The notes beneath the pieces are model-generated. The model was given only the letters and a program-made list of their open reading frames with translations. It had not been told where the DNA came from and searched no databases. A DNA stretch of 64,000 nucleotides from Escherichia coli 042 (lineage in GTDB: Bacteria > Pseudomonadota > Gammaproteobacteria > Enterobacterales > Enterobacteriaceae). Within the stretch, counting starts at the first letter, position 1. Every line of letters starts with the position of its first letter. The position numbers and the translations under genes are program-made. The stretch lies in assembly GCF_000027125.1 (NCBI RefSeq), contig NC_017626.1, one strand, 5' to 3'. Shown piece after piece: positions 56,962-57,128 of this stretch.

Positions 56962-57018
56962 GATTGTTCAAGACAATCACATTGCTGGAACAGGGTTCAT
57001 CCCTGTCAATGATGGATT
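56962..57018. repeat. Copy B of the repeated 58-bp element
   Basis: gattgttcaagacaatcacattgctggaacagggttcatccctgtcaatgatggatt; two mismatches relative to copy A at 41634. Confidence 0.7.
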
Positions 57019-57100
57019 TATCCATAAAGAATTGCGGCGATAGCCGCTATGAAATAAAGGAGAAACAATTTCATCTGTACTCATATATAAGCAGTGCTAA

Positions 57101-57128
57101 GTGATTGTTTAAAACAATCACTTCGCTG
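57101..57128. repeat. Partial copy C of the repeated element (first inverted repeat only)
   Basis: gtgattgtttaaaacaatcacttcgctg, preceded by agcagtgctaa as in copy B. Confidence 0.55.

What the first reader, a model, noticed from the sequence alone, without database searches (positions are those of the whole stretch)
56962..57128. Tandem arrangement of copy B and a partial copy C of the repeated element
Within about 170 bp the full element (56962-57018) is followed by a partial copy (57101-57128) that retains only the GATTGTT...AACAATC palindrome and the preceding agcag(c/t)(a/g)ctaa context. Repeated operator-like palindromes between the two Rep-like loci suggest cooperative regulator binding or handcuffing-type control.
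Basis: seen in the sequence. Interest (0 to 1): 0.4.

Follow-up and report, generated by a model that had tools for sequence, protein, structure and literature searches.

The report
Twin operator-like palindromes beside island origin
Two copies of a 21-bp palindrome, 141 bp apart, belong to a conserved but undescribed non-coding control region of a widespread family of mobilizable genomic islands; they most likely bind a regulator protein and are not replication "handcuffing" sites.

Summary
B (56949-56990) and C (57090-57131) share 42 nt at 81% identity around a 21-bp palindrome, GTGATTGT-N5-ACAATCAC. A third copy, A, lies at 41632-41652. Chance would give none.

The window is E. coli chromosome carrying an island at ssrA. 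The island is related to the EARL (ROD21-like) mobilizable islands. The B-then-C pair recurs in 30 modules from about 20 enterobacterial genera and in 739-778 of 5426 complete E. coli genomes. It always points towards a Rep-like gene.

The 8-bp arms are about 99% conserved and the 5-nt centre varies in sequence but never in length. The downstream Rep gene and its iterons switch between at least four types. So this is not a Rep operator, and handcuffing is not supported.

In most relatives C overlaps a bottom-strand sigma-70-like promoter. A covarying terminator-like hairpin (57034-57047) lies about 55-95 nt further on, just before B. A hairpin block resembling a MOBQ nick site (56726-56772) precedes B.

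Best reading (confidence 0.4): B and C are twin operators for an unidentified regulator that controls a short leftward transcript. The rivals are hairpin signals on transferred single-stranded DNA, or RNA-level elements. Interest is moderate.

The parts
56949..56990 (+). Copy B, the 42-nt repeat unit. Its 21-bp palindrome GTGATTGTTCAAGACAATCAC lies at 56960-56980. It is flanked by CAGCA (56951-56955) and TGCTG (56983-56987).
56905..57029 (+). Full 'B-type' element as conserved in relatives. It comprises the upstream conserved 45 nt, the palindrome, hairpin P2 and hairpin P3.
   Evidence: nhmmer profile match, 126 bits; alignment
56990..57006 (+). Hairpin P2, ACAGGG-TTCAT-CCCTGT. It is shared by copies A and B. 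Two of its base pairs show compensatory changes in the Serratia/Erwinia relatives of the alignment (L008, L029); Yersinia L043 carries the same GGAG..CTCC variant.
57012..57025 (+). Hairpin/palindrome P3, ATGGATTTATCCAT. Its core is invariant in 25 relatives. It contains TTATCCATA (57018-57026), which differs from a DnaA box by one base.
   Evidence: one-mismatch DnaA boxes occur at the chance rate
57034..57047 (-). Hairpin P4, GCGGCTATCGCCGC followed by AATTCTTTAT. It is terminator-like on the bottom strand only. One stem pair switches from G-C to T-A in 8 of 25 relatives.
57090..57131 (+). Copy C, the 42-nt repeat unit. Its perfect palindrome GTGATTGTTTAAAACAATCAC lies at 57101-57121. It marks the boundary between the conserved module and the variable rep cassette.
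57104..57132 (-). Bottom-strand promoter-like site over C. In this window it is -35 ATTACA (57132-57127), a 17-nt spacer and -10 AACAAT (57109-57104), matching 8 of 12. In most relatives the -10 is TACAAT and the match is 9-10 of 12.
57136..57165 (-). Alternative bottom-strand promoter-like site, TTGTGC-18-TATAAT (9 of 12), ending 14 nt before the C palindrome. With this promoter C would lie just after the start site.
57024..57097 (-). Predicted leftward transcript of about 70 nt, running from the C promoter to the P4 terminator. This is inferred, not shown.
56726..56772 (+). Conserved hairpin block: IR1 ATGAGCTGAAGCTCAT, IR2 GTGCTGACGCAC, then GGCTACGCCCTAAC. It resembles a MOBQ nick site. 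It precedes nearly every B-type element in relatives.
41611..41696 (+). Copy A: palindrome ATGATTGTTCAAAACAATCAC at 41632-41652, plus hairpin P2. It lies 115 bp upstream of the traD-like gene (41205-41516, minus strand), in the traD-mobQ spacer.
57390..57480 (.). CTATAAC-type iterons in front of the Rep-like gene. They are unrelated in sequence to the palindrome.
57693..58391 (+). Rep-like winged-helix gene (232 aa). In every locus this is the gene class that B and C point towards.

Best explanation
B and C are two binding sites (operators) on double-stranded DNA for one sequence-specific, probably dimeric, protein. That protein is encoded by the island or by a helper element and has not been identified.

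The sites sit in a non-coding control module of about 420 bp. The module lies between a hairpin block that resembles a transfer-origin nick site (56726-56772) and the iteron origin of a Rep-like gene.

C lies over the spacer and -10 of a bottom-strand promoter. That promoter would make a short leftward RNA (about 70 nt here) ending at hairpin P4. B lies just beyond that terminator. A third site, A, lies upstream of the traD-like transfer gene, on the strand that fits the same promoter geometry.

When the protein occupies the sites, possibly cooperatively between C and B, the leftward promoters would be shut.

Shown: the repeat; the conservation of the pair and of its spacing; the invariance of the arms; independence from Rep type; and the promoter-like and terminator-like matches.

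Inferred: protein binding, the transcript, and repression.
For: - The arms are 98.6-99% identical across 31 distinct B-type and 26 distinct C-type contexts. The 5-nt centre is only 67-73% conserved, yet is always 5 nt long.
- 7 of 8 and 6 of 8 arm pairs never vary, while the neighbouring hairpins P2 and P4 do show compensatory changes.
- There are 30 B-then-C pairs in 43 loci. Spacing is 138-142 nt in 23 of them and 164 nt in 4.
- The pair is present in 739-778 of 5426 complete E. coli genomes.
- The palindrome stays the same while the downstream Rep gene and iterons change type.
- The pattern with its GCTG flank is confined to these islands among 100,044 species genomes, which argues for an island-specific factor.
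- The ninth base is A in 19 of 29 C-type sites and in 0 of 36 B-type sites (Fisher p = 1.6e-9, not corrected for relatedness). This gives -10 TACAAT on the bottom strand, with -35 TTTTCA/ATTACA/TGGACA at 16-17 nt.
- The built-in scan finds the same site in three divergent relatives, together with the P4 terminator-like hairpin 55-95 nt further on.
- The linkers are unequal (4 nt against 2 nt), so the 16-17 nt promoter spacing is reached on the bottom strand and not on the top strand.
- Copy A lies in front of traD, on the bottom strand.
Against: - No cognate protein was found. The TraD-like protein models as all-helical at medium confidence and has no fold match.
- A small ORF that usually diverges from B is absent from this window.
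- B-type and A-type sites are only weakly promoter-like, about 7 of 12. The window's own C scores 8 of 12.
- The number of promoter-like sites in these AT-rich regions is not above chance. Only their constant position is informative.
- The conserved flanks (CAGCR ... YGCTG) are asymmetric and extend the hairpin.
- P2 and P4 covary, and the whole 416-nt region folds far better than shuffles as a single strand (z = -7.4). Those features fit single-stranded DNA or RNA signals.
- The body of the predicted RNA is poorly conserved, carries a 23-nt indel, and folds no better than shuffles (z = -1.4 to +1.6).
Confidence: 0.4

Rival explanations
1. The sites are hairpin signals read on transferred single-stranded DNA. 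In this reading the + strand is nicked at the MOBQ-like site (about 56764) and enters the recipient 5' end first. B and C, 190-340 nt in, fold into hairpins that a protein recognises by sequence. That protein could be a primase, the relaxase or a host primosome factor. The hairpins would start complementary-strand synthesis, acting as a single-strand origin (sso/ssi), or would help termination.
For: - All A, B and C copies are co-oriented in every locus.
- The region is a dense hairpin cluster, with ssDNA fold z = -7.4.
- P2 and P4 show compensatory changes.
- A hairpin followed by GGCTACGCCCT precedes nearly every B. One of its stems is kept even with a 25-nt loop insertion. Its core CGCCCT matches the published MOBQ oriT consensus.
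- The relaxase N-terminus matches NES and R1162 MobA.
- Genes to the right of rep are all on the strand for which the + strand is the template, as in plasmid leading regions.
Against: - The strand assignment rests on a 6-nt core. A second nick-like core sits in the classical traD-mobQ spacer.
- The arms show no covariation and no bias in wobble pairs.
- Copy A is 15 kb away from that nick site.
- No primase was recognised.
- An Frpo-type fold-back promoter is not formed. The T-strand arms give only about 6 of 12, and the minimum-energy fold keeps local hairpins.
- There is no similarity to any known ssi or sso.
Confidence: 0.17
2. The sites act at the RNA level. On the bottom strand, B, P4 and C are successive hairpins followed by U-rich tails. 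They would stop or attenuate leftward transcription from the origin region, acting as an insulator. Alternatively they form the ends of a small regulatory RNA. In this reading the palindrome matters as RNA structure and not as a protein site.
For: - All four terminator-like sites found in 56500-57750 are on the bottom strand (4 found, 0.5 expected). Similar results hold in relatives.
- P4 covaries.
- In many relatives C and B are followed by U-runs on that strand.
- The promoter-plus-terminator geometry of about 70-95 nt is the usual design of a small RNA.
Against: - A stem that matters only as structure should covary, as P2 and P4 do. The arms are invariant instead.
- The tails after B and C in this window are poor U-runs.
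- Rfam has no match.
- The loop sequences of B and C in the same island do not co-vary, so a kissing interaction is unlikely.
Confidence: 0.15
3. C is a loading site for a processive antiterminator. The palindrome in the promoter spacer would recruit a Q-like factor that lets RNA polymerase read through P4 and B into the leftward genes.
For: The architecture is a binding element between -35 and -10 with an intrinsic terminator downstream. The same architecture is described for the P. aeruginosa AlpA/alpB promoter. Several terminator-like hairpins follow C.
Against: - The island's AlpA-family protein is 77 aa, a short Phage_AlpA/HTH_17-type protein. The ROD21 homologue SEN1998 was reported as a recombination directionality factor that binds the attachment regions. 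It is not the larger Q-like AlpA (contact residues up to H142).
- That system uses a 6-bp asymmetric element bound by a monomer, not a 21-bp palindrome.
- No Q-like gene was found.
Confidence: 0.05
4. One reading: the sites are Rep-binding operators that pair origins (handcuffing) or autoregulate rep.
For: The sites lie next to iterons and Rep-like genes.
Against: - There is no sequence relation to either iteron set.
- The palindrome is invariant across at least four Rep types that are 30-45% identical, each with different downstream sequence.
- Copy A lies far from any rep gene.
- Deleting the ROD21 homologue SEN1990 had no effect on the island's copy number (PMC10655114).
Confidence: 0.03
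5. The sites are relics with no function of their own. They would be leftover duplication junctions, or homology patches at which rep cassettes are swapped.
For: Truncated copies sit at module junctions (L020, L021, L026, L039). C marks the breakpoint between the backbone and the rep cassette.
Against: The arms are about 99% conserved next to freely varying centres and flanks, across about 20 genera. That requires selection on the sequence itself.
Confidence: 0.05

Closest known systems
Promoter-overlapping operator with an auxiliary operator. Plasmid control regions that combine a repressor operator with a short countertranscript are a related case (e.g. pIP501 CopR/RNAIII, R1 CopB/CopA). Both comparisons come from my own knowledge.
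   Same: An inverted-repeat site covers the spacer and -10 of a promoter. A second copy lies about 140 bp away. A short terminated transcript is made next to a replication gene.
   Different: No repressor gene has been identified. The predicted RNA is not shown to be antisense to a rep mRNA. The module is independent of the Rep type. A third copy sits at a transfer gene.
MOBQ origins of transfer (RSF1010/R1162, and staphylococcal pC221/NES type)
   Same: The island relaxase is of this family. The block 190 nt upstream of B consists of hairpins followed within 7 nt by CGCCCT, as in the consensus ..TAAGTGCGCCCTY...
   Different: B and C themselves carry no nick core. Nicking has not been tested. 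A second candidate lies in the traD-mobQ spacer.
Frpo/ssi single-strand promoters and priming signals of plasmid leading regions
   Same: Both are strand-specific hairpin clusters just downstream of a putative nick site, with the downstream genes oriented for transcription from the transferred strand.
   Different: The fold does not rebuild a -35/-10 duplex. Sequence similarity to known Frpo elements was not tested.
Iteron-plasmid Rep operators and handcuffing
   Same: The position is next to iterons and a winged-helix initiator-like gene.
   Different: The palindrome is unrelated to the iterons and does not change with Rep type.
Q-like antiterminator loading sites (P. aeruginosa AlpA binding element)
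   Same: A DNA element lies between -35 and -10, with an intrinsic terminator downstream.
   Different: That element is 6 bp, asymmetric and bound by a monomer. No Q-like protein is present here.

Membership tests
Rep operator / handcuffing site of an iteron replicon | The site shares a half-site with the iterons of the adjacent rep gene | tested here: not met
   The iterons at 56402-56481 (ACTGAC..GTCAG type) and 57390-57480 (CTATAAC type) contain no GTGATTGT or ACAATCAC.
Rep operator / handcuffing site of an iteron replicon | The site sequence changes together with the Rep protein type | tested here: not met
   The arms are invariant upstream of four to five Rep types that are 30-45% identical.
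Operator of a dimeric repressor | Two inverted half-sites at a fixed spacing, with a centre free in sequence | tested here: met
   The arms are 8 bp and about 99% conserved. The centre is always 5 nt and 67-73% conserved.
Operator of a dimeric repressor | Overlap with the core elements of a promoter | tested here: inconclusive
   At least 13 of 29 C-type sites score 9-10 of 12 on the bottom strand. The window's C scores 8 of 12. B and A score about 7 of 12. These are consensus matches only.
Operator of a dimeric repressor | A cognate DNA-binding protein | not testable with these tools
   The TraD-like model is all-helical with pLDDT 72 and has no PDB fold match. The AlpA-like protein and other small proteins were not tested.
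MOBQ origin of transfer | An inverted repeat followed within about 8 nt by the nick core (G)CGCCCT | tested here: not met
   B and C have no such core. The neighbouring block 56742-56767 does have it: IR2, then GGCTA, then CGCCCT. That block is a separate element.
MOBQ origin of transfer | Cleavage by the cognate relaxase and cis-acting mobilisation | not testable with these tools
   These are experimental tests.
Frpo-type single-strand promoter | The fold-back of the transferred strand forms a duplex carrying -35 and -10 | tested here: not met
   The top-strand arms give 5-6 of 12. The minimum-energy ssDNA fold keeps local hairpins.
Intrinsic terminator (hairpin P4) | A GC-rich stem followed by a T-run, with the stem kept by compensatory change | tested here: met
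   The scan finds it on the bottom strand in the window and in three relatives. One stem pair is G-C in 16 sequences and T-A in 8. Termination itself has not been shown.
Known RNA families (Rfam 15) | A match to a covariance model | tested here: not met
   There is no gathering-score hit in the island. The best E-value hits in 56300-57700 are noise.
DnaA box | TTATNCACA | tested here: inconclusive
   TTATCCATA at 57018-57026 has one mismatch. Such matches occur at the chance rate in the window, 64 found against 67 expected. The motif is nevertheless invariant in 25 relatives.
EARL (ROD21-like) island family, as the context of the element | A backbone of tyrosine integrase, AlpA-like directionality factor, TraD, MOBQ relaxase and an H-NS-like protein | tested here: met
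   All of these are present. The E2348/69 island IE3, named in the family paper, carries the same B/C module. The integrase here is only about 30% identical to those of the E2348/69 and ATCC 25922 islands. The insertion site is ssrA.

The most novel reading that the evidence does not exclude
The hairpin block, B and C are cis signals read on the transferred single strand. The block would be a second MOBQ nick site. B and C would be sequence-specific hairpins that load a priming or processing factor. This would be a new kind of single-strand origin for Gram-negative integrative mobilizable elements. Two co-oriented nick sites (about 41980 and 56764) might also let the relaxase cut out sub-circles of the island.
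Probability: 0.13. Interest if true: 0.7.

Novelty: new member of a known kind. Interest (0 to 1): 0.4.

Why it matters
ROD21-like islands include ROD21 of Salmonella Enteritidis, ICEKp258.2 of the Klebsiella pneumoniae ST258 clone, the tcpC island of uropathogenic E. coli and IE3 of EPEC. None of the family papers I searched describes a mapped origin of transfer, origin of replication or regulatory site for these islands.

The module described here is the most conserved non-coding stretch of the backbone, and it lies next to the Rep-like gene. It is therefore the obvious place to look for the cis-acting control of island transfer and establishment.

It also gives short, exact targets for mutation: the 21-bp arms, the C promoter and the nick-like block.

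Tried and rejected
- **Rfam:** scans at gathering score and by E-value gave nothing in the island.
- **Other collections:** plasmids yielded only four records carrying the same island module. Phages yielded none.
- **Copy A as the origin of transfer:** rejected. A is absent from the traD-mobQ spacer of the E2348/69 and ATCC 25922 islands, while other blocks there are invariant.
- **Sigma-54 promoter in CTGGAAC-N5-TTGC after B:** only a few lineages have the GG-N10-GC spacing. Others have GA, a 1-nt shorter spacing, or TCAT (reading).
- **Sigma-E promoter:** the spacing is wrong.
- **DnaA box:** the match is at chance level.
- **Kissing-loop or antisense pairing between B and C:** the centre sequences of B and C in the same island do not co-vary.
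- **Strand bias of G:T against A:C mismatches in the arms and outer stem:** there are too few events and they are mixed.
- **Divergent small ORF (L1h111) as the repressor:** it is absent from this window.
- **TraD-like protein as a ribbon-helix-helix binder:** the AlphaFold model is all-helical and Foldseek found nothing.
- **Frpo-like fold-back promoter:** not formed.
- **The 73-aa ORF at 56665-56886(-):** probably not a gene. Its conserved part is the hairpin block, which is near-identical at the DNA level while the flanks diverge.
- **Literature search for the palindrome sequence:** only irrelevant hits.

Full report
**Observation.**
The region was read directly. The repeat finder reports a 42-nt direct repeat, 56949-56990 against 57090-57131, at 81% identity and 141 nt spacing, together with the corresponding inverted pairs. 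The palindrome GTGATTGTTNNNNACAATCAC has three sites in the 64-kb window: B at 56960-56980, C at 57101-57121 and A at 41632-41652. None is expected in shuffles. C also keeps the right-hand TTCGCTG.

**Context.**
The window is chromosomal. It carries an rRNA operon and tmRNA at 35384-35746. It is E. coli, at 99.8% identity to ten complete genomes. An island begins directly after ssrA. Its genes, in order:
- integrase, DUF3644 protein and a DNA methylase;
- a TraD-like gene (41205-41516, minus strand) and a MobA/MobL relaxase (42352-43860);
- a DotA/TraY-like protein;
- two Rep-like winged-helix genes;
- a protein made of the H-NS N-terminal domain, an AlpA-family protein and a DUF6387 protein.

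The same backbone occurs in the serU/tcpC island of ATCC 25922 and in the E2348/69 island. The latter, IE3, is named as a member of the EARL (Enterobacteriaceae-associated ROD21-like) family (PMC6035254). The family papers describe no origin of transfer, no origin of replication and no repeat of this kind. Deleting the ROD21 Rep-like gene SEN1990 did not change the island's copy number.

**Distribution.**
- The 241-nt B-C stretch is found in 778 of 5426 complete E. coli genomes. In 739 of them at least 80% of it is covered. It is always chromosomal and never annotated.
- A scan of one genome per species for GTGATTGT-N5-ACAATCAC-N3-GCTG gave 39 stretches. Almost all are in Enterobacterales: Dickeya, Pectobacterium, Brenneria, Serratia, Yersinia, Citrobacter, Enterobacter, Cedecea, Kluyvera, Hafnia, Buttiauxella and others.
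- Across 43 loci there are 30 B-then-C pairs. Spacing is 138-142 nt in 23 of them, 164 nt in 4, and about 300 nt in 3 where an extra unit is inserted.
- tblastn and nhmmer maps give a constant order: backbone genes, hairpin block, B (sometimes duplicated together with the block), C, iterons, Rep-like gene. All copies are co-oriented.
- The Rep-like gene belongs to at least four types that are 30-45% identical. The sequence to the right of C changes with it. C is therefore the boundary between a conserved module and a swappable rep cassette.
- Having a second Rep-like gene on the left, as in this window, is a lineage peculiarity.

**Anatomy.**
The consensus of the site is AGCAGCRCTTM GTGATTGT N5 ACAATCAC WYYGCTG. 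The arms are 98.6-99% identical in 31 distinct B-type and 26 distinct C-type contexts. The centre is 67-73% conserved and always 5 nt long.

On a 25-sequence alignment, 7 of 8 and 6 of 8 arm pairs never vary. Compensatory changes occur elsewhere: in hairpin P2 (56990-57006; two pairs), in the outer pair of P3, and in P4 (57034-57047; G-C in 16 sequences, T-A in 8). The arms are thus under sequence constraint, while P2 and P4 are under structural constraint.

The palindrome has no relation to either iteron set.

**Promoter and terminator reading.**
C-type sites differ from B-type sites at the ninth base. It is A in 19 of 29 C-type sites and in 0 of 36 B-type sites (p = 1.6e-9, uncorrected for relatedness). 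On the bottom strand this creates -10 TACAAT. A -35 of TTTTCA, ATTACA, TGGACA or TGAACA lies 16-17 nt upstream and overlaps the outer CAGC.

The linkers between the outer and inner repeats are unequal, 4 nt on the left and 2 nt on the right. Because of this, the 16-17 nt promoter spacing is reached on the bottom strand and not on the top strand.

The built-in scan independently lists this site in three relatives:
- the K. pneumoniae plasmid-borne island, TGGACA-16-TACAAT, 10 of 12;
- ATCC 25922, ATTACA-17-TACAAT, 9 of 12;
- Brenneria, TTTTCA-17-TACAAT, 9 of 12.

In each case the P4 terminator-like hairpin lies 55-95 nt further on the same strand. In the window C scores 8 of 12 (ATTACA-17-AACAAT). 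A second candidate, TTGTGC-18-TATAAT, ends 14 nt before the C palindrome. P4 is again listed as terminator-like on the bottom strand.

This predicts a leftward RNA of about 70 nt (57097 to about 57024). Its body is poorly conserved and folds no better than shuffles. The total number of promoter-like matches in these AT-rich regions is not above chance, so the argument rests on their constant position. B and A score only about 7 of 12. Copy A lies 115 bp upstream of the traD-like gene on the matching strand.

**Neighbouring block.**
The block at 56726-56772 consists of ATGAGCTGAAGCTCAT, GTGCTGACGCAC and GGCTACGCCCTAAC. It is nearly identical in most loci and precedes nearly every B. In three lineages the loop of the second hairpin carries a 25-nt insertion while the stem is kept.

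Its core CGCCCT, 7 nt after the hairpin, resembles the MOBQ oriT consensus NWACCNNTAAGTGCGCCCTYNN and the Gram-positive variant. The island relaxase matches NES (4HT4, E = 5e-26) and R1162 MobA.

A second nick-like core (TTGCCCTTACGGG) lies in the traD-mobQ spacer, where several blocks are invariant in five islands. Which site, if either, is the origin of transfer cannot be decided here.

If the + strand is nicked at about 56764, B and C lie in the first 350 nt to enter a recipient. As single-stranded DNA, the 416-nt region folds with z = -7.4. This keeps a single-strand-signal reading alive. An Frpo-type fold-back promoter (defined) is not formed.

**Verdict.**
The tandem B/C arrangement is a real, strongly conserved and so far undescribed cis element. 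The best-supported mechanism is a pair of operators for an unidentified protein, with C placed on a leftward promoter and a terminator between C and B (confidence 0.4). The rivals that cannot be excluded are hairpin signals on the transferred strand (0.17) and purely RNA-level terminators or a small RNA (0.15).

The element is a new member of a known kind, namely promoter/operator control regions of mobile elements. Interest is moderate, mainly because it marks the likely cis-acting control hub of a clinically relevant island family.

Noticed in passing
window 56726-56772: A hairpin block (IR1, IR2, then GGCTACGCCCTAAC) is conserved upstream of nearly every B-type element in 43 loci. Its core resembles the MOBQ nick site. 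The IR2 loop tolerates a 25-nt insertion while the stem is kept.
   Followed up: partly
window 41517-42351 (traD-mobQ spacer): A 65-nt block near mobQ (about 42150-42215, CAATGCCCACC...GCAGGCTAA) is invariant in five divergent islands. Two small GC hairpins with TTAC loops lie at 41925-41990. The second contains GCCCTTACGGG and is followed by a T-run. These are alternative candidates for the origin of transfer.
   Followed up: partly
window 51949-54609 (-): An 886-aa DotA/TraY-family protein is encoded inside a mobilizable island that has no secretion system of its own. Relatives carry IncI-type pilV and pilin genes instead. This hints that the islands remodel a helper plasmid's transfer apparatus.
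   Followed up: no
window 56402-56481 and 57390-57480: There are two unrelated iteron sets, one for each Rep-like gene. The first is three 21-bp-spaced ACTGAC..GTCAG units. The second is an inverted array of CTATAAC units.
   Followed up: partly
window 57158-57190 and 57292-57316: Twin hairpins GGTGCCATT..GGCAC lie between C and the iterons. Both are terminator-like on the bottom strand. They are conserved in islands with three of the Rep types.
   Followed up: no
window 56830-56873: Three GATC sites fall within 44 nt, between the hairpin block and B. They are conserved in relatives and could be Dam/SeqA targets near the origin.
   Followed up: no
window 58423-61521 (-): A run of bottom-strand genes: an H-NS N-terminal-domain protein, four small, mostly acidic proteins, an AlpA-like protein and a DUF6387 protein. 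If the + strand is the one transferred, they are oriented like the leading-region establishment genes of plasmids.
   Followed up: no
L020:1751-1830, L021:4370-4464, L026:3878-3952 and 7486-7569, L039:1193-1278: Truncated B-type copies (upstream part plus palindrome only) sit at junctions between the backbone and inserted rep cassettes. The palindromes therefore coincide with recombination breakpoints.
   Followed up: partly
window 35746-64000: The island starts at the 3' end of ssrA. No second copy of the tmRNA 3' end is present in the window, so its right end lies beyond 64000. Its integrase is only about 30% identical to those of the tRNA-associated islands of E2348/69 and ATCC 25922.
   Followed up: partly
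L001 (K. pneumoniae plasmid pINF177.2, CP110748.1 125703-138133): The same island backbone, with copies A, B and C, sits inside a 310-kb IncFIB/IncHI1B conjugative plasmid. The island family can therefore also reside on plasmids.
   Followed up: no
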